Source of the DNA: a virus
Reading direction: 5' to 3' (one strand)
DNA: 64,000 bases
Virus record (IMG/VR): IMGVR_UViG_3300025519_000044
Span: 27,359 to 91,358 of that record
The notes below the pieces were generated by a model. That model was given only the letters and a program-made list of their open reading frames with translations, made no database searches and was not told the DNA's origin. The position numbers and the translations under genes were made by a program. Shown one piece after another: positions 18,413 through 63,950 of the stretch; within the stretch, counting starts at the first letter, position 1; the number at the start of each line of letters is the position of its first letter.

Positions 18413-18835
18413 ATGCAAGTAAAAATTGAAAATCAAAAATTAGCTCAATCTATTAATCTTTTATACAATCTATCTCTTAAAGGAAAACAATCTCGCCATC
18501 GCTCAAAATTTATTAAAGCTTTGCAAGAACGACTACAGGAGTTTGCAGCAGATGAAAAAGAATTGTTGAAGGAGCACTGTAATTTAGATGAGAACGGCAA
18601 CCCAAAAACAATTGAGAATGGTACGAAGTGGGATGTTAAAGACTTAGATGCTTTTGTTAAGGAAAAGAAAGAGTTATATGAGGAAGAGCGAGTTTTTGAA
18701 GGAGGCGATGCTCAGGAAATGCTCAAAACCGTTAAGGAGGTGTTGCTTAATTGCGATAAAGAATTTACCGGCGCAGAGGCTGAAATTTACGATTACTTGT
18801 GTGATCAGTTCGAAAAAGGAGCGGATGAAAAATGA
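18413..18835 (+). CDS. DUF1617-like phage protein
   Basis: L.GKQSR.R.KF and YDYLCDQF motifs; homolog at 56713. Confidence 0.7.
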   Translation: MQVKIENQKLAQSINLLYNLSLKGKQSRHRSKFIKALQERLQEFAADEKELLKEHCNLDENGNPKTIENGTKWDVKDLDAFVKEKKELYEEERVFEGGDAQEMLKTVKEVLLNCDKEFTGAEAEIYDYLCDQFEKGADEK

Positions 18836-19107
18836 GTGTTAAAATCCAGTTTACGAATATTAATCTTGCAAAAGACAATGAGGGCAATATTACCGGCGCT
18901 ACTGTCCCGGTAACAGTTACATCAGAAATCGGTGGGCAATATTTTTCTACGTCCGGCACATACACGCTAAAGCTGGACGAGCTGACCAGTACCGGGTTTG
19001 ACGCAACAAAATTTGAAAAACTATTGTCCCAAAAAACGGCGGAAAATCTGTCTGCTATGGTAAATGACCTAAACACAGATAACGCAACAGAACAAACGAC
19101 ATCGTAA
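18832..19107 (+). CDS. Hypothetical phage protein
   Basis: GGAG RBS; overlaps upstream stop. Confidence 0.6.
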   Translation: MSVKIQFTNINLAKDNEGNITGATVPVTVTSEIGGQYFSTSGTYTLKLDELTSTGFDATKFEKLLSQKTAENLSAMVNDLNTDNATEQTTS

Positions 19108-19129
19108 TGAGTTAGGGGGTGTGGATCCG

Positions 19130-19462
19130 TTGGAAGGATTGACCATGGATGAAAGAATCGAAAATCATGAAACGCGGATTACCGCCTTAGAAAAAAATTA
19201 CGCGGACTTGACCAACAAAATGCAGGCGGTAGAAACAGGTCAGCTGCGGATTGAAAAAACGTTGCTTGAAGAAGGAAAAGAACAGAAGAAGTTGATTAAC
19301 GAGCAGCGAGAAGAACAGCAGGAGCTTTTAAATAGGCTGCTGGAGCACACACTGAACATAAAGCGAAATAACAGCTATAAAAAATGGGATTTAGCCCTTG
19401 CCCTATTTGGCGGTGGGGGCTTAATTTATGCCTTAATAAGCTTAGTTGAAAGATTTTTTTAA
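19130..19462 (+). CDS. XhlA-like lysis/holin accessory protein
   Basis: Coiled coil plus C-terminal TM helix; AGGGGGT RBS suits TTG 19130. Confidence 0.7.
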   Translation: MEGLTMDERIENHETRITALEKNYADLTNKMQAVETGQLRIEKTLLEEGKEQKKLINEQREEQQELLNRLLEHTLNIKRNNSYKKWDLALALFGGGGLIYALISLVERFF

Positions 19463-19486
19463 CCATAAAGGGAAGGAGTGAACGCT

Positions 19487-20521
19487 ATGAAAGGGTTTGA
19501 CATTTACCATGGCAGCGGAAATGTCGATTTTAAAAAGGCATATGCTGCCGGATACCGGATTGTGATGGTAAAAGCGACAGAGGGCAAGACATTTAAGGAT
19601 CCAAAGTTTTCCGCAAACGTCAAAGCCGCAAAATCTGCCGGGTTTAAGGTGGGCGCCTACCATTTTGCCCGATTTACAAGCCCGGCGGTCGCCCGGCAGG
19701 AAGCGCGGTATTTTTATGGCGCCGTGAAAGGCTATCTCAAATACATGGATGAACCGTTGGTGCTGGATCTTGAGACCAACCATGCCGGCAGCCAGCTGGT
19801 CGCGTCCATGCAGGCGTTTTTTTCCGAGCTGAAAAAGCTTACCGGTCATAGGCTCATGCTCTATAGCATGGGTTATTTTTATCTCTCAAATTTAAAAGGC
19901 CATCATCCCGGTATCCCGTTGTGGTACGCCCGATACGCATCCAGTCCAATCGGTGTGCACAGCTATTATCTATGGCAAAAGTCGCAGAGCGGGAAGGTGC
20001 CGGGGATCTCCGCCTATGTGGACATAAACGAGACAGGCCCGGATTATCCGTCCACATTGCAGGCCGAGGTTAAAAAGGCGGCAGCTGCGGTTACTACTGC
20101 TAAAAAGGCGGCGTCCACAGCTAAGGAGACAACAACAAAGGCAGTGGCCAGGCCAACAACCGCGGTAAAAACGACGCCGTACTATGTAACGGCCGGCAAA
20201 TTAAACATCCGTAAGAGCCCGGGCGGGGACGTTATCGGGCAGCTTAACCACGGCGACAGGGTGCAGGTGCTGGGCATTTCTGCAGGTTGGGCAAAACTCA
20301 AATCGGGCAGCAACGTGGTCTATGTATCTGCTAAGTATCTATCAAAATCGCAAACTGCCACAAAGACGGCGCCGAAACCCGTTTACCACACGGTGGTACG
20401 GGGAGACACGGCGTCAGCCATTGCCAAAAAATACGGTGTCACGCTTGCACAGTTGAAAAGCTGGAACAAGCTTGATAGCAAATACACAATCTATGTCGGT
20501 AAAAAAATCCGCGTAAAATAA
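19487..20521 (+). CDS. Endolysin: GH25 muramidase + SH3b + LysM
   Basis: KATEG, GAYHF and LDLE motifs; LNIRK.PG SH3; C-terminal LysM. Confidence 0.92.
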   Translation: MKGFDIYHGSGNVDFKKAYAAGYRIVMVKATEGKTFKDPKFSANVKAAKSAGFKVGAYHFARFTSPAVARQEARYFYGAVKGYLKYMDEPLVLDLETNHAGSQLVASMQAFFSELKKLTGHRLMLYSMGYFYLSNLKGHHPGIPLWYARYASSPIGVHSYYLWQKSQSGKVPGISAYVDINETGPDYPSTLQAEVKKAAAAVTTAKKAASTAKETTTKAVARPTTAVKTTPYYVTAGKLNIRKSPGGDVIGQLNHGDRVQVLGISAGWAKLKSGSNVVYVSAKYLSKSQTATKTAPKPVYHTVVRGDTASAIAKKYGVTLAQLKSWNKLDSKYTIYVGKKIRVK

Positions 20522-20533
20522 GGAGGAAAAAAC

Positions 20534-21061
20534 ATGTTACACACTATTATTCAAGCAGTTTACGCAATCATTCTGGCAGGGATTCCGGCGGTGCTCGGTT
20601 ATGCCGGAAGATACGCAAAGAAATTTTTGCAATCGAAACACTTGGAAGGCATCGCCATCCGCGCGGTAAAATATGCAGAACAGTTAATGCCGGAACCGGG
20701 GCAGGGCGGGGAAAAGTACCGGGCCGCGTCTCAATATCTGGCGAAAAAGGCATATCAGCTTTTCAAAGTTAACCTGGAGCCGGCCGATATCAGGGCGCTA
20801 ATCGAGGCGGCGGTCAATGATCTCAACCAAGAACTTGCTACATTTGCAGACGCGCCGGCGAAAGAAGCTGTGGAAGACGATGAACCGGCCGAGGAAACGG
20901 AACATGCCGGGGAAGAAACAGCATCAGCAGATGAACAGGTACTCGGTGCAGTTGATGCAAATAATATTAGCGTAACGGCGGAAAACGTTGTTGCACAAGG
21001 AGCAAAAAAAGTCGGAGATATGACGCTGGAAGAATTGCGGGCGGCATTGGCGAATAAATAA
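20534..21061 (+). CDS. Holin, LL-H-like family
   Basis: N-terminal TM helix; AV.YAEQ, G.EK and IEAAV motifs. Confidence 0.8.
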   Translation: MLHTIIQAVYAIILAGIPAVLGYAGRYAKKFLQSKHLEGIAIRAVKYAEQLMPEPGQGGEKYRAASQYLAKKAYQLFKVNLEPADIRALIEAAVNDLNQELATFADAPAKEAVEDDEPAEETEHAGEETASADEQVLGAVDANNISVTAENVVAQGAKKVGDMTLEELRAALANK

Positions 21062-21100: not shown

Positions 21101-21128
21101 AAAAAAGCCCTCGCAAATGCGGGGGCTT
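21101..21128. terminator. Hairpin terminator after lysis genes
   Basis: AAGCCCTCGC-aaat-GCGGGGGCTT; T tract on minus strand; conserved at ~59524-59549. Confidence 0.7.
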
Positions 21129-21155
21129 GAAATTTAAAAAATAACGTGATAATAT
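21127..21155 (+). promoter_or_regulatory. Sigma-A promoter of repeat-like RNA, copy 1
   Basis: TTGAAA-17 nt-TAATAT with extended TG. Confidence 0.75.
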
Positions 21156-21161
21156 CTTTTT

Positions 21162-21266
21162 AAAGGTATCGCGTCCTTTTAAAAAAAATGCGTGGATTGA
21201 AACTGTGAATTGGATATTTGAGCTAAGCCGAAACTGCCGGGGCTTATTCCTCGGCAGTTTTGCTTT
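21162..21266 (+). ncRNA. Solitary type I-C-like CRISPR repeat RNA (candidate RNA anti-CRISPR or crRNA-like guide), copy 1
   Basis: ATCGCGTCCTTTTAAAAAAAATGCG-TGGATTGAAAC (21168-21203), ~21 nt tail, terminator hairpin 21225-21265. Confidence 0.72.
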
Positions 21267-21268
21267 AT

Positions 21269-21315
21269 AAATAAGGTCGTAAAACCCCTACGCCTTTAGG
21301 CTAGTGGTAGTTCAA
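21269..21315 (+). mobile_element. Possible minimal IS200/IS605-family end remnant
   Basis: Follows TTTAT; hairpin CTAcGCC-ttta-GGCTAG; ends GGTAGTTCA; absent from block 2. Confidence 0.35.
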
Positions 21316-21336
21316 TTTTTAGCCAGAATTGCGTGG

Positions 21337-21729
21337 CTAAATATTTGTTTCCCAGGCATCCACAGTTGCTTTCATAGCTTCCATGGCATGTTTTTTTGTG
21401 GGAAAATGTTCTATGCCGGATTCCCCGTCATCGACATTGTAAGACGGAACTTCATCCGCATACGGATATTCCGGTCCCCAAGCGAAGAAGTAATTTCCAT
21501 TTTCGGCCTTCCCGACGGCGTAGGCCTCGCCGTTATTTGGGAAGTTGTCACGCAATTCAACGATTTCTAATACCTCCACTTTCAACTCCTCCTCTTTTTC
21601 CTCTACATATTTCCTCATCAATTGTCGGATGACTTCACTCTTGTTTTGCATCAGTGCTTCATTTACGCGGTCGAACCGATCAAGAAGGTCCTGATCAATC
21701 CTGTATTGCCTCGTACGTTTCACTTTCAT
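21337..21729 (-). CDS. Ribbon-helix-helix domain fused to acidic domain (Aca-like/Acr candidate)
   Basis: GGGAGG RBS; RTRQYRIDQDLLDRF..NKSEVIRQLMRKYVE pattern; homolog 60552-60944. Confidence 0.75.
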   Translation of the reverse strand: MKVKRTRQYRIDQDLLDRFDRVNEALMQNKSEVIRQLMRKYVEEKEEELKVEVLEIVELRDNFPNNGEAYAVGKAENGNYFFAWGPEYPYADEVPSYNVDDGESGIEHFPTKKHAMEAMKATVDAWETNI

Positions 21730-21766
21730 ACCTCCCATAACCAAAAAGATGGACACAACATGCGCA

Positions 21767-21795
21767 TTGACATGATAAAAGTTTGTGATTATAAT
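21767..21795 (+). promoter_or_regulatory. Perfect consensus sigma-A promoter driving the mini-array
   Basis: TTGACA-17 nt-TATAAT. Confidence 0.88.
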
Positions 21796-21800
21796 TAGTC

Positions 21801-21896
21801 CATGAACCATAACACAGGGTGTATTTAAATAGTATCTTTTTAATTAATTAACCTGTGCTATTTTTTATTGAACCGTAACATGAGATGTAAGGGAAG
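21801..21896 (+). CRISPR. Phage-borne mini-array (repeat-36 nt spacer-truncated repeat), I-B-like repeat family
   Basis: R1 21801-21830 CATGAACCATAACACAGGGTGTATTTAAAT; spacer 21831-21866; R2 21867-21889 ATTGAACCGTAACATGAGATGTA then degenerate. Confidence 0.78.
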
Positions 21897-21925
21897 AGGG
21901 AGCGAACATAAATCCGCTCTCTTTT
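21894..21925 (+). terminator. Terminator of mini-array transcript
   Basis: AGAGGGAGCG-loop-CGCTCTCTTTT. Confidence 0.65.
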
Positions 21926-22435
21926 CTATTTTTCCGGTTTCCCGAATTTTTCCGTAAGCGCAGTTTCTGATATAAACGTATAGGCGCCGTTACTTTTAAA
22001 ATGGCCATCCGGATAATCGGCGCCGTCTATCTCTTCCACCGATATGCCCCAAGTTTTTGCGGCATCCTTTGCTTCCCACACCTTAATGCCAAGTGGTTTA
22101 AAAGTTTTTCGCATTTCCCGGTACATTTCGTATGCTTCCGCGCGATTCTTTCGTTTGTTATTACGTTCTGCTATTATTTCCTTTATTTTATCGGCAGCCG
22201 CCAGAAACTCATCTTCATCTACTTCCCACGTTCCAACCGTTTTATAATCTGTTTGTAGTCTAGATTCGCTGTTGTCGAAAGTGGTTGACGGTAAAACCTC
22301 CCCAAGGCTGAATATGTAATCTTCCTTAACGGCATGTTCGACAATCGCAAATGCCTCGGCAGCTTTTGGTGTCCCCTTTACAAGCTCCGGGTAAACAGTT
22401 TCGGAATAAGACGTTTCTTTATACACAATTTTCAT
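21926..22435 (-). CDS. Hypothetical; acidic N-terminus, degenerate HTH-like C-terminus (Acr candidate)
   Basis: AGGAGG RBS; DAAKTWGIS..FISETAL..FG resembles winged HTH. Confidence 0.7.
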   Translation of the reverse strand: MKIVYKETSYSETVYPELVKGTPKAAEAFAIVEHAVKEDYIFSLGEVLPSTTFDNSESRLQTDYKTVGTWEVDEDEFLAAADKIKEIIAERNNKRKNRAEAYEMYREMRKTFKPLGIKVWEAKDAAKTWGISVEEIDGADYPDGHFKSNGAYTFISETALTEKFGKPEK

Positions 22436-22454
22436 TTTTGTTTCCTCCTAATTT

Positions 22455-22826
22455 TTATGCGTTTATTTTAGCGCCTTTAAATCTCCAAAACGCTTTTGTT
22501 ACCGGTGTATATGCGCCACGTTCTTGTGCCACAATAACACCGTTTTGCAATTCAAGAAACCCTTGTTCTTTACGGTATCCGGATCCTGTATAGTAATTTA
22601 CGTATAAGCGTTCCTTCCCGTATTTTGCCCAGTAGTTAACGGAATAGGAATCGCTCTTCATTACGGAATTGATGTAGGTTTCAACATCTTCCACCGTAAT
22701 TTCTTTTGCTTCTTTTGCCTCCTTCCATGCGAGCCGGAGAGATTCTGCAAAGTATTCCTTTACCTTTCCGCCAAATTTACGTTGCCCTGCTTTAGCAATC
22801 TCCCAAGCCCGTTTCATAACGTTCAT
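22455..22826 (-). CDS. Hypothetical, first gene of leftward operon (Acr candidate)
   Basis: AAAGGAG RBS; N-terminal ~38 aa shared with 61017-61406. Confidence 0.75.
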   Translation of the reverse strand: MNVMKRAWEIAKAGQRKFGGKVKEYFAESLRLAWKEAKEAKEITVEDVETYINSVMKSDSYSVNYWAKYGKERLYVNYYTGSGYRKEQGFLELQNGVIVAQERGAYTPVTKAFWRFKGAKINA

Positions 22827-22857
22827 TTCTCTTATCTCCTTTCCTTATCTTGATTTC

Positions 22858-22889
22858 ATTGTATCATTTTGTATGTACATTGTCAATAC
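22858..22889 (-). promoter_or_regulatory. Strong leftward promoter with overlapping imperfect palindrome
   Basis: TTGACA-17-TACAAT on minus strand; GTATGTACA-T-TGTCAATAC 22871-22889. Confidence 0.8.
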
Positions 22890-22965
22890 GTTTTTTGAAT
22901 TTTTTTATTGGTTTTTGAAAAAAGTGATCCCGCCAAAAAATCCCAAAAAATTTTTTCGAGGCCTA

Positions 22966-22994
22966 TAGACAAAATAAGCCAATTTTCTTATAAT
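22966..22994 (+). promoter_or_regulatory. Sigma-A promoter of C-rich sRNA, copy 1
   Basis: TAGACA-17-TATAAT; conserved at 62292-62320. Confidence 0.8.
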
Positions 22995-23000
22995 TTTGTT

Positions 23001-59547: not shown

Positions 59548-59576
59548 TTGAAATTTAAAAAAACCAGTGGTAATAT
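59548..59576 (+). promoter_or_regulatory. Sigma-A promoter of repeat-like RNA, copy 2
   Basis: TTGAAA-17-TAATAT with extended TG; boxes conserved, spacer diverged. Confidence 0.75.
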
Positions 59577-59582
59577 ATCCAT

Positions 59583-59685
59583 AAAGGTACCGCGTCCTTT
59601 TAAAAAAAATGCGTGAATTGAAACTGTGATTTGGATATTTTGAAGCTGAAACTGTCGAGATTTTATGTCTCGGCAGTTTTGGCTT
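59583..59685 (+). ncRNA. Solitary type I-C-like CRISPR repeat RNA, copy 2
   Basis: ACCGCGTCCTTTTAAAAAAAATGCG-TGAATTGAAAC 59589-59624; tail TGTGATTTGGATATTTTG; hairpin 59643-59685. Confidence 0.7.
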
Positions 59686-60551: not shown

Positions 60552-60944
60552 TTATTTTACATCCCAGGCCTCTACAGCTTCTTGTAGTTCCGCCATGGCC
60601 TGTTTTTCCGTGGCGTGCCAGCTTATTCCGTTCTCTCCGTCCGGGATGTTGTATGACGGCACTTCATCGGCGTACGGATATTCTGGACCCCAAGCGAAAA
60701 AGTATTTTCCATTTTCGGCTTTTCCGACGACGTAAGCCTCGCCATTGATTGGGAAGTTGTCCCGCATCTCGATAATTTTTTCAACCTTCACTTTCAATTC
60801 CTCCTCTTTTTCTTCCACGTATTTTTTCATCAGTTGGCGAATGACTTCACTGCCATTCACCATCAGCGCGTCGGTGACGCGGCTGAACCTTTCGGCTAGA
60901 TCTACATCAATTCGAAATGTCCGAGTTGTTTTCATTTTTTCCAT
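60552..60944 (-). CDS. Ribbon-helix-helix fused to acidic domain
   Basis: TTRTFRIDVDL..F..SEVIRQLMKKYVE; homolog 21337-21729. Confidence 0.78.
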   Translation of the reverse strand: MEKMKTTRTFRIDVDLAERFSRVTDALMVNGSEVIRQLMKKYVEEKEEELKVKVEKIIEMRDNFPINGEAYVVGKAENGKYFFAWGPEYPYADEVPSYNIPDGENGISWHATEKQAMAELQEAVEAWDVK

Positions 60945-62439: not shown

Positions 62440-62658
62440 CTAATCTTCCCACACGTCATCCATCAACTTTTCAATTTCTCTCTTCATTTCATCGGTGCGT
62501 TTTTTGTCAACTCGATATTCGCCGTTTTCATAAATCAATGCATCGCCTTCTTTGGCACTTATGGGCAACTTACTTCTTTCAATGTCAACTAGTTTCATGT
62601 TTTCATCTTCACAAACGGCAAACTTTTCTTCAAAATGGTCAATGATGTATCGCTTCAT
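62440..62658 (-). CDS. DUF3006 family protein
   Basis: IID.FE..FAV.E and LP..AKEGD motifs. Confidence 0.85.
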   Translation of the reverse strand: MKRYIIDHFEEKFAVCEDENMKLVDIERSKLPISAKEGDALIYENGEYRVDKKRTDEMKREIEKLMDDVWED

Positions 62659-62663
62659 TTAAG

Positions 62664-63800
62664 TCACCTCGGCGTAAAAGACGTTTGTGTTTTGTATGTT
62701 TTGCCTTTGTAACTTGCCAAGACATCCACTTTTACTTTATACCCCTTTGCTGCCCGGCTTATTTTAATAGGGAGTTTCGAGCCGACTTTCCCATTGTATG
62801 TCGTATTTTTTGACTTATAGTGGCAAACTGCTTTATATTTTGTGCCGTTGGGCAGCCCTCGGACCGTCAGGTAAATCGTGCTGTATTGTTTTGGTCTCGA
62901 GTTGCTTACAGACGCAGACAGCTTGTAAGATGATTTTGCCACTGTACTGGTGGTAGACGTGCTAACCGGTTTAGTGTTAAAACTCAAATTTTTGCCATCC
63001 GTGGTTGCCACGATCGTGCCTTGTTTATCCGTACGAAAAATCTTTACTTTAGCAGATTTTAGGCGATTAAGCGTGTCCGCTGTAGGGTGGCCGTAGCTGT
63101 TTCCTTTACCAACGCTAATTACGGCATAAGCGGGTTTAACAGCCCGCAAAAAAGCGGTACTTGTGGACGTTTTAGCTCCGTGATGACCAACTTTTAAAAC
63201 GTCCGATCGTAAATATTGTTTGGATTTAATCATGTCCGTTTCAGCTTTAAATTCTGCATCACCGGTAAACAAGAATGATTTCTTGCCATACTGTACCCGC
63301 AAAACAGCGCTGTTGTCATTTAAATCGCTGTAACTTTTTACCGGTCCGACGAATTTCGCCGAGACGCCTTTTACAGGCAAACTTACGCCTTTCGTAGCTG
63401 TTTTTGCTTTCAAGCCTTCATTTTTAACGGCTCTCAGCAAATTAGCATAAGTTTGGGTGCTGTTGGACACTTTTGGAGCATAAAAAGATTTGACTTTGTA
63501 TGCTTTTAAGACCTCGTCCAATCCGCCGATGTGATCGGCATCTGGATGTGTCGCGATCATCACTTCAATGTCACCGACATGTTGCCGTTTTAAATATGAT
63601 ACTACTTTGTTTCCGTCACGGCCGCCATCAATTATGATGTCCTCTCCGTTTGGTGCCTTAATATAAATCGAGTCACCCTGTCCAACGTTTATGTAGTGGA
63701 CATACATTTTCTTTGTTGCCGCGTCCGGGCTTTGTGGCAACGCTACCAAAGACAGCAATAAAGCGAGCGCAACTAAGACTTTAAACCTAAAATTTTTCAT
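62664..63800 (-). CDS. Secreted ComEC/Rec2-like MBL-fold metallohydrolase
   Basis: Signal peptide; VGQGD, THPDADHIGG, TGD and HHG motifs; GAGGTG RBS. Confidence 0.9.
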   Translation of the reverse strand: MKNFRFKVLVALALLLSLVALPQSPDAATKKMYVHYINVGQGDSIYIKAPNGEDIIIDGGRDGNKVVSYLKRQHVGDIEVMIATHPDADHIGGLDEVLKAYKVKSFYAPKVSNSTQTYANLLRAVKNEGLKAKTATKGVSLPVKGVSAKFVGPVKSYSDLNDNSAVLRVQYGKKSFLFTGDAEFKAETDMIKSKQYLRSDVLKVGHHGAKTSTSTAFLRAVKPAYAVISVGKGNSYGHPTADTLNRLKSAKVKIFRTDKQGTIVATTDGKNLSFNTKPVSTSTTSTVAKSSYKLSASVSNSRPKQYSTIYLTVRGLPNGTKYKAVCHYKSKNTTYNGKVGSKLPIKISRAAKGYKVKVDVLASYKGKTYKTQTSFTPR

Positions 63801-63950
63801 CTGCACCTCTCCCTTCGTGAATATTTTATATGAGAATTTTGGATATGCAATGGGTTTTTGAAAAAAATATGTAAATGCCTGCAAAAAAGAGCAGGCTTTC
63901 ACCTGCTCTTTTTTCTACTCAATACAGCTGGCTGGCTGTCATCTTTTGAG

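What the first reader, a model, noticed from the sequence alone, without database searches (positions are those of the whole stretch)
21162..21266. Solitary type I-C-like repeat RNA with own promoter and terminator (copy 1)
Seen: TCGCGT..ATGCG stem followed by TGGATTGAAAC. Established: I-C repeats have the form GTCGC-stem-loop-GCG-TGGATTGAAA(C/T), and Cas5c cuts at the stem base leaving an 11-nt tag, which is reproduced here. The loop is lengthened (CCTTTTAAAAAAA). A 21-nt unpaired segment follows, then a terminator in place of a second repeat. Inference: a Racr-type decoy forming an aberrant Cascade, or a short regulatory guide.
Basis: partly seen in the sequence, partly recalled or inferred. 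Interest (0 to 1): 0.88.

Follow-up and report, generated by a model that had tools for sequence, protein, structure and literature searches.

The report
Phage mimic of host cas-silencing RNA
Two neighbouring prophages of the Heyndrickxia (Bacillus) coagulans group each carry a small RNA gene copied from the host's own type I-C CRISPR self-regulator RNA, which most likely makes the host's CRISPR complex sit on and shut off its own cas3 operon; this phage trick was described recently, so it is a well-supported new example and not a new principle.

Summary
At 21127-21266 (+) there is a strong promoter, a degenerate type I-C repeat with an intact 11-nt handle, a 16-nt guide-like stretch and an intrinsic terminator. 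A second copy lies at 59548-59685, and five more lie in other phage records, three of them complete genomes without cas genes.

The new result is the target. Three Bacillales genomes carry a host psiR-psiS-terminator gene upstream of a cas3-cas5c-cas8c-cas7c operon. Their CRISPR repeats are identical to those published for Weizmannia/Heyndrickxia coagulans. The host guide pairs with a TTC-flanked site between the cas3 promoter -10 box and the ribosome-binding site, and guide and site co-vary between genomes.

The phage guide equals the host guide at every pairing position. The seven phage copies vary only at guide positions 6 and 12, the bases that Cas7 flips out. TTC plus the phage guide hits one site in a 3.5-Mb host genome: that cas3 site. 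Host I-C arrays hold about 30 spacers against this phage record.

It is therefore a Cracr-type RNA anti-CRISPR (Liu et al., bioRxiv 10.1101/2024.10.29.618823), not a plain Racr decoy. The scan reached the same reading before on other DNA (e1-5343623) and for copy 2 here (e1-6058303). No experiment supports it yet.

The parts
21106..21127 (+). Hairpin closing the lysis (lysin-holin) operon, overlapping the -35 box of the RNA gene
   Evidence: Read from the sequence. It is conserved in all group-1 copies, with a two-sided change in L012. The holin gene ends at 21061.
21127..21155 (+). Sigma-70-type promoter: TTGAAA, 17 nt, TGaTAATAT (extended -10). Inferred transcription start near A21162.
   Evidence: Promoter scan. 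The same boxes are kept in copy 2 and in L008, L009, L010 and L012. L180 has TTGACA-17-TATTAT instead. The start site is inferred, not mapped.
21168..21203 (+). psiR, a degenerate type I-C repeat. Stem 21170-21174/21188-21192, 13-nt A/T loop, 11-nt 5'-handle TGGATTGAAAC at 21193-21203. The Cas5c cut is expected before 21193.
   Evidence: The handle is identical to that of the host I-C repeats (PMC8954581 Table 4). The cut site is inferred from known I-C processing.
21204..21219 (+). psiS, a 16-nt guide TGTGAATTGGATATTT that copies the guide of the host cas-regulating RNA
   Evidence: It equals the host G356 psiS at 15 of 16 positions, differing only at position 12. The seven phage copies vary only at positions 6 and 12. 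TTC plus this guide has one 0-mismatch hit in host genome G356, at the cas3 5' region.
21220..21233 (+). Variable linker between guide and terminator. The phage form is about 21 nt shorter here than the host gene.
   Evidence: Alignment A2. 7 of 14 positions vary among the group-1 phage copies.
21234..21266 (+). Intrinsic terminator (9-bp core stem extendable to 17 pairs, then a T-run). It takes the place of a second repeat and resembles (not scored) the host gene's terminator.
   Evidence: Folds. The consensus fold has a G-C to A-U compensatory pair in 3 of 7 copies. Aligned with the host terminators in A2.
59548..59685 (+). Copy 2 in the second prophage, with the same architecture. Handle variant TGAATTGAAAC (59614-59624); guide TGTGATTTGGATATTT (59625-59640), which differs from copy 1 at guide position 6.
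   Evidence: The A variant of the handle also occurs in the I-C repeats of W. coagulans strain H-1 (PMC8954581 Table 4).

Best explanation
The element is a phage-borne copy of the host's type I-C cas-regulating RNA gene (CreR type), that is a Cracr-type RNA anti-CRISPR.

Proposed mechanism:
1. The RNA is transcribed from its own strong promoter.
2. Host Cas5c is expected to cut it before 21193, leaving the 11-nt handle.
3. Host Cas5c, Cas8c and Cas7 assemble on the handle and guide.
4. The 16-nt guide pairs in 5-nt segments (positions 1-5, 7-11, 13-16) with a TTC-flanked site between the -10 box and the ribosome-binding site of the host cas3-cas5c-cas8c-cas7c operon.
5. The pairing is too short to license Cas3, so the complex acts as a roadblock and keeps the operon off. 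At the same time the RNA competes with real crRNAs for Cas proteins.

Shown here: the anatomy, the descent from the host gene, the unique target with its PAM, the selection pattern, and the CRISPR pressure on this phage. Inferred: transcription start, processing, loading, repression and any benefit to the phage.
For: 1. Host counterpart. A search of 401 Bacillales genomes with the element hit three genomes across the handle plus guide. In each, a psiR-psiS-terminator unit lies 300-480 nt upstream of cas3, Cas5c, Cas8c and Cas7c.

2. Target and co-variation.
- G356: guide TGTGAATTGGAAATTT, site TTC|TGTGAATTGGAAATTTA on the opposite strand, just before the RBS.
- G288: changes at positions 2 and 13 occur in both guide and site.
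- G312: a change at position 9 occurs in both guide and site.

3. Phage guide. It is identical to the G356 guide except at position 12. Among the seven phage copies only positions 6 and 12 vary. The chance of that for two sites out of 16 is 1/120. Every sixth guide base is flipped out by Cas7 and does not pair (PMC11127173).

4. Specificity. TTC+TGTGANTTGGANATTT has exactly one 0-mismatch hit in the 3.5-Mb genome G356, at the cas3 site.

5. Common descent. The alignment with the host gene extends through the terminator. L180 shares 18 of 19 guide-region bases with the host but has an unrelated G+C-rich repeat stem.

6. Selective pressure. Host I-C arrays hold 32 spacers with 4 or fewer mismatches to this 91-kb record, 20 of them with a TTC PAM.

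7. Setting. The element is on complete phage genomes with terminal repeats and no Cas5c or Cas7c. It always sits just after the lysin or holin gene.

8. Precedent. Liu et al. define Cracrs by exactly these criteria and list I-C candidates.
Against: - No experiment exists. The RNA-library contigs that cover the element carry no strand or end information.
- The genome of the actual lysogen is not available, so it is unknown whether the phage's own host has this I-C locus or this exact site.
- The repeat hairpin of copies 1 and 2 is weak, so Cas5c processing might be poor.
- Most phage-matching spacers lie in the arrays of a second, different I-C system ('system A'), whose promoter the phage guide does not match. 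Silencing 'system B' alone might not protect the phage unless the shared handle also makes the RNA a decoy for system A.
- The promoter scanner did not list the G356 cas3 promoter because its -35 box is weak. It did list the homologous promoters in G312 and G288.
Confidence: 0.8

Rival explanations
1. Pure Racr-type decoy. The repeat mimic only soaks up Cas5c and Cas7 into dead-end complexes, and the downstream 16 nt have no guide role.
For: It is a solitary repeat unit with its own promoter, as in Racrs, and RacrIC1 has been validated (PMC10651486). The handle is shared with both host I-C systems, so titration is plausible.
Against: The guide stretch is the best-conserved part of the element, with variation only at positions 6 and 12. 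It copies the host regulator's guide and matches a single TTC-flanked cas3 site. L180 keeps the guide while its repeat stem is replaced. Liu et al. separate Racrs from Cracrs by this very guide match.
Confidence: 0.1
2. Guide for the phage's own type IV-B effector. The RNA would be cut by the phage Cas6 at the 8-nt ATTGAAAC tag and would steer the phage complex onto the host cas3 promoter.
For: A Csf2-like (type IV Cas7) gene is present in this record and in G435, the record that holds L008. The last 8 nt of the handle equal the common Cas6-type tag (own knowledge).
Against: Three other phage records carry the RNA but no Csf2 hit, two of them complete genomes with terminal repeats. The repeat is of the I-C kind, which Cas5c processes. 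The host regulator uses the same guide with host I-C proteins.
Confidence: 0.04
3. Inert relic: a piece of host CRISPR-locus DNA picked up by a phage and carried along without function.
For: Clear sequence similarity to a host locus.
Against: It is kept at the same post-lysis position in seven copies from diverged phages. Each copy has a strong promoter and a terminator with compensatory changes. Substitutions avoid the pairing positions of the guide. The linker is shortened relative to the host gene, as reported for other Cracrs.
Confidence: 0.05

Closest known systems
Cracr RNAs (viral crRNA-like regulatory RNAs; Liu et al., bioRxiv 10.1101/2024.10.29.618823)
   Same: It is on a phage and outside any cas locus. 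It has a psiR with an intact handle and a psiS that copies a host CreR guide. Its target is at the host cas promoter with the cognate PAM. Its guide region is shorter than the host's. It sits next to another anti-CRISPR RNA, as in their multiplexed loci.
   Different: Their tested cases are V-A, I-E and I-F, and their I-C cases are predictions. This I-C case uses a single repeat plus a terminator, the layout they describe for V-A. I could not check whether it is already in their Table S2, because no supplement is held.
Host CreR/CreA cas-regulating RNAs (bioRxiv 10.1101/2023.03.10.532045; PMC10120712)
   Same: The same guide, handle and terminator as the I-C regulator found here upstream of cas3 in G356, G312, G288 and metagenome contig L063. 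The logic of partial pairing is the same.
   Different: The phage copy lies outside the cas locus, has a different and much stronger promoter placed about 30 nt from the handle, a reshaped repeat loop and a linker about 21 nt shorter.
Racr RNAs, e.g. RacrIC1 of a Bifidobacterium prophage (PMC10651486)
   Same: A solitary I-C repeat mimic on a prophage that would act against type I-C.
   Different: Racrs are described as repeat mimics, with no guide role reported. Here the conserved, target-matched guide is the main feature. RacrIC1 is co-transcribed with acrIC5, whereas this RNA has its own promoter.

Membership tests
Cracr (viral crRNA-like regulatory RNA) | Encoded on a mobile element, outside any CRISPR-cas locus | tested here: met
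   It lies between the lysis genes and the lysogeny genes/integrase. There are no Cas5c or Cas7c hits in five phage records, two of which have terminal repeats.
Cracr (viral crRNA-like regulatory RNA) | Repeat-like psiR that keeps the cognate 5'-handle | tested here: met
   TGGATTGAAAC against the host repeats' TGGATTGAAAT. Copy 2's TGAATTGAAAC matches the strain H-1 repeat variant.
Cracr (viral crRNA-like regulatory RNA) | psiS shares at least 9 PAM-proximal bases with a host CreR/CreA guide (the criterion of Liu et al.) | tested here: met
   11 contiguous PAM-proximal bases and 15 of 16 overall match the G356 guide.
Cracr (viral crRNA-like regulatory RNA) | Guide matches a PAM-flanked site at a host cas (or creT) promoter | tested here: met
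   A TTC-flanked site lies between the -10 box and the RBS of cas3. It is the only 0-mismatch hit in genome G356. Guide and site co-vary in G288 and G312.
Cracr (viral crRNA-like regulatory RNA) | Cas-dependent maturation, repression of cas transcription and relief of CRISPR targeting | not testable with these tools
   Only contig-level cover in RNA libraries is available.
Racr (solitary repeat decoy) | Solitary repeat unit on a mobile element, transcribed on its own or with acr genes | tested here: met
   A single repeat-like unit with its own promoter and terminator.
Racr (solitary repeat decoy) | Acts through the repeat alone, with no conserved target-matched guide | tested here: not met
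   The guide is conserved and target-matched.
Viral CRISPR mini-array for conflict between viruses | Repeat-spacer-repeat with a full-length spacer that matches other mobile elements | tested here: not met
   There is no second repeat. The guide has no PAM-flanked match in the window. A TTC-flanked target-pattern scan of viral contigs gave 11 hits; none has the cas3-type context by my partial filter, and most were not inspected.

The most novel reading that the evidence does not exclude
In the phages that also carry the array-less type IV-B module with Cas6 (this record and G435), the RNA could serve two effectors. Loaded into host I-C Cascade it silences cas3. Cut at its 8-nt ATTGAAAC tag by the phage Cas6, it would also programme the phage's own type IV-B complex onto the same host promoter. 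That would give an orphan type IV-B system a natural guide and a natural target.
Probability: 0.05. Interest if true: 0.85.

Novelty: new member of a known kind. Interest (0 to 1): 0.45.

Why it matters
- It supplies a clean type I-C case of a phage copying the host's cas self-regulator, a subtype for which only predictions were published.
- The host regulator, its target site, its co-variation and the phage copies are all in hand, in a bacterium used in industry and as a probiotic.
- The restriction of natural variation to guide positions 6 and 12 is an unusually direct sequence signature that the RNA is read by a Cas7 backbone.
- The case shows that H. coagulans-type genomes run two I-C systems, each with its own regulator RNA, and that the phage mimics only one of them. 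This raises a testable question about cross-talk between the two systems.
- The neighbouring I-B mimic makes this a two-subtype RNA counter-defence island.

Tried and rejected
- **Exact 34-nt element pattern in viral contigs:** no hit. A looser loop-plus-handle pattern gave 18 hits, of which only L008, L009, L010 and L012 are true copies; the rest lie in a coding region of unrelated phages or are chance matches.
- **The one genome-contig scan (handle + TGTGA):** it hit mainly ordinary I-C arrays whose spacer happens to start with TGTGA (7 of 8 loci; the eighth was a lone chance match). It still gave handles for the genome searches.
- **BLAST against GenBank phages and PLSDB plasmids:** nothing beyond one chance match. 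No Rfam family matched.
- **Metagenome scan for the target site:** Only L063 is a true host locus, identical in guide and site to G356.
- **Laying RNA runs:** all four runs are contigs. In pure-culture RNA libraries of coded 'organism B', contigs cover 21110-23000 at a much higher contig depth than the lysin contig. Contigs show no strand, end or local level, and DNA carry-over cannot be excluded. An adapter-joined contig end near 21177 is not interpretable.
- **Mimic of the system-A regulator guide in the 91-kb record:** none found.
- **Apparent synteny of the MBL-fold gene at the window's right end with the gene upstream of the host regulator:** only 51% protein identity, so it was dropped.
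- **System-B array spacers:** they match the phage only weakly, with 5-6 mismatches.
- **Tool limits:** The lysogen's own genome could therefore not be examined.

Full report
**What is there**

The window is part of a 91-kb IMG/VR virus record. It holds two related prophage-like units about 38.3 kb apart.

In unit 1 the lysin (GH25-SH3-LysM, 19478-20521) and the holin (20534-21061) are followed by a hairpin. After the hairpin comes a self-contained small gene on the + strand:

- Promoter: TTGAAA, 17 nt, TGaTAATAT at 21127-21155.
- Degenerate type I-C repeat at 21168-21203. Its stem is only 5 bp around a 13-nt A/T loop, but its last 11 nt, TGGATTGAAAC, are a perfect I-C handle.
- A 16-nt stretch, TGTGAATTGGATATTT, at 21204-21219.
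- A variable linker.
- A strong intrinsic terminator at 21234-21266.

Downstream genes converge on the element. They are an RHH-domain protein, two small proteins, a DUF4352 protein and the integrase.

Unit 2 has the same gene at 59548-59685, again right after its lysin.

Rfam has no family for the element.

**Family**

Pattern scans of IMG/VR found five further copies:

- L008, L009, L010 and L012 are close relatives of copy 1 or copy 2.
- L180 is a distant one. It has a different promoter (TTGACA-17-TATTAT) and an unrelated G+C-rich repeat stem, but the same handle core, the same 16-nt stretch and a similar terminator. It also sits directly after a gene end and is convergent with the next gene.

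Two of the carrier records have direct terminal repeats, so they are complete phage genomes. None of the five records searched encodes Cas5c or Cas7c.

The consensus fold of the seven copies keeps the 5-bp repeat stem, with three pairs changed on both sides in L180. It also keeps a 17-pair terminator with one G-C to A-U compensated pair. In single-sequence folds the repeat stem of copies 1 and 2 is too weak to appear.

**The host counterpart and the target**

A search of 401 genomes of the order around a Neobacillus genome hit three genomes, G356, G312 and G288. The matches fell precisely on the handle plus the 16-nt stretch, at 88-93% identity.

In each genome the match is a repeat-like unit followed by a near-identical 16-nt stretch and a terminator. 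It lies 300-480 nt upstream of an operon whose products score as Cas3, Cas5c, Cas8c and Cas7c. I call this operon 'system B'. Its own small array has the repeat GTCACACTCCTCGTGAGTGTGTGGATTGAAAT.

The reverse complement of the host's 16-nt stretch lies between the cas3 -10 box and the ribosome-binding site, and on the guide-sense strand it is preceded by TTC. TTC is the PAM seen at most of the phage protospacers matched by the host I-C arrays.

| Genome | Host guide | Site after TTC | Relation |
|---|---|---|---|
| G356 | TGTGAATTGGAAATTT | TGTGAATTGGAAATTTA | full match |
| G288 | TATGAATTGGAAGTTT | TATGAATTGGATGTTT | positions 2 and 13 changed in both; mismatch only at 12 |
| G312 | TGTGAATTAGAAATTT | TGTGAATTAGAA... 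| position 9 changed in both |

A metagenome contig (L063) repeats the G356 arrangement.

The promoter scanner lists TTGAAA-17-TATAAT and TTGAAA-17-TATACT upstream of the site in G312 and G288. In G356 the homologous -35 box is weak and the promoter was not listed.

This is the anatomy of a CreR-type cas autorepressor (bioRxiv 10.1101/2023.03.10.532045).

**Link between phage and host RNA**

The phage stretch differs from the G356 guide only at position 12.

Among the seven phage copies the only variable positions in the 16 nt are 6 and 12, while 7 of the 14 linker positions vary. The variants are:

- Position 6: A or T.
- Position 12: T or G.

Class 1 effectors flip out every sixth guide base, which does not pair (PMC11127173). 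For two variable sites among 16, the chance that both fall on positions 6 and 12 is 1/120.

TTC followed by the phage guide, with N at positions 6 and 12, has exactly one 0-mismatch hit in the 3.5-Mb genome G356, and that hit is the cas3 site.

The alignment with the host gene continues into the terminator. L180 shares 18 of 19 bases after the handle with the host. The phage forms lack about 21 nt between guide and terminator. Liu et al. report the same trend of shorter guide regions for I-F Cracrs.

**Why the phage would need it**

Each of the three genomes has a second, different type I-C locus, which I call 'system A'. Its large arrays use these repeats:

- G356 and G312: GTCGCTCCCTACATGGGGGCGTGGATTGAAAT.
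- G288: the same repeat with one base changed.

These repeats, and the system-B repeat, are letter for letter those tabulated for Weizmannia (Heyndrickxia) coagulans strains MA-13, CSIL1, DSM1 and H-1. The same paper also reports two unrelated I-C loci and prophage-borne type IV operons in that species (PMC8954581).

Of the array spacers, 32 match the 91-kb record with 4 or fewer mismatches. Five have none, and 20 have a TTC PAM. Examples in the window:

- 18892-18924, 0 mismatches.
- 20860-20893 in the holin gene, 1 mismatch.

The phage group is thus under real type I-C pressure.

**Open point**

The phage guide matches the promoter of system B, while most anti-phage spacers sit in system A arrays. 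System A has its own, different regulator RNA on the minus strand between cas3 and cas5. Its guide pairs with a TTC-flanked site at the cas5 promoter, again with mismatches at positions 6 and 12 (and at 16). The phage carries no mimic of that guide.

Both systems share the 11-nt handle. The phage RNA could therefore also compete for system A proteins, or system B proteins might use system A crRNAs. Neither possibility can be tested here.

**Expression**

Four RNA libraries hold the region, but only as contigs. In two pure-culture studies of one coded organism, contigs spanning the element and the adjacent leftward genes have far higher contig depth than the lysin contig. This is at most a weak hint of expression in lysogens, because strand, ends and local depth are not available.

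**Alternatives**

- **Pure Racr decoy.** This does not explain the guide's conservation or its target match.
- **Guide for the phage's own type IV-B module.** This is unlikely as a general role. Only two of the five phage records have a Csf2-like gene.
- **Inert relic.** This is contradicted by the promoter, the compensated terminator and the substitution pattern.
- **Mini-array against other viruses.** The element has no second repeat and no PAM-flanked target in the window. The TTC-flanked target pattern gave 11 hits in viral contigs, none with a cas3-type context by my partial filter, and most were not inspected.

**Comparison with what is known**

The element meets every sequence-level criterion of the Cracr class, which already lists I-C candidates. 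It is a new, well-documented member and not a new kind.

The scan had reached the same reading for a look-alike in another genome (e1-5343623) and for copy 2 here (e1-6058303, where the target was not sought). The present work adds the host regulator, the target, the co-variation and the position 6/12 signature.

Noticed in passing
window 21769-21925 (+): A second promoter-driven CRISPR-like unit lies 500 nt downstream. After TTGACA-17-TATAAT comes a two-repeat, one-spacer mini-array of I-B type, with repeats ending in ATTTAAAT-like tags. Together with the I-C mimic it forms a two-subtype RNA counter-defence island. Copy 2's island lacks it.
   Followed up: partly
L202 7440-7560 (host genome G356, I-C 'system A'): Between cas3 and cas5 of the host's other I-C locus lies a minus-strand repeat-like unit with guide ATATATTATATGATTT and a terminator. 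The cas5 promoter region holds TTC|ATATAATATATAATTA, which mismatches the guide at positions 6, 12 and 16. This is a second, independent CreR-like autorepressor in the same genome.
   Followed up: partly
window 18450-20893 and many other places of the 91-kb record: Host I-C arrays of G356, G288 and G312 carry 32 spacers with 4 or fewer mismatches to this phage record, 20 of them with a TTC PAM. Some spacers are duplicated within the G356 array.
   Followed up: yes
window 21337-21729 (-) and 60552-60944 (-): A 130-aa protein is conserved in both prophages next to the RNA genes. It has an N-terminal ribbon-helix-helix (CopG) domain and an acidic C-terminal domain of no known family. It could be an Aca-like regulator, possibly fused to an inhibitor domain.
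   Followed up: partly
G000:C1:18132-18887 (outside the window) and G435:C1:34614-35435: A Csf2-like (type IV Cas7) gene lies on this phage record and on the record that holds L008. It scores below the family cut-off, at 74-82 bits. Three other carriers of the RNA lack it.
   Followed up: partly
window 59614-59624: Copy 2 and L008 have TGAATTGAAAC instead of TGGATTGAAAC in the handle. The same G-to-A variant is the consensus of the I-C repeats of W. coagulans strain H-1 (PMC8954581 Table 4). This suggests the mimic is tuned to host handle variants.
   Followed up: partly
window 62664-63902 (-) and 62440-62658 (-): An MBL-fold/ComEC-like protein and a small DUF3006-like protein lie at the right end. 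A 51%-identical MBL-fold protein and a similar small ORF lie just upstream of the host regulator RNA in G356. The similarity is too low to claim the same locus.
   Followed up: partly
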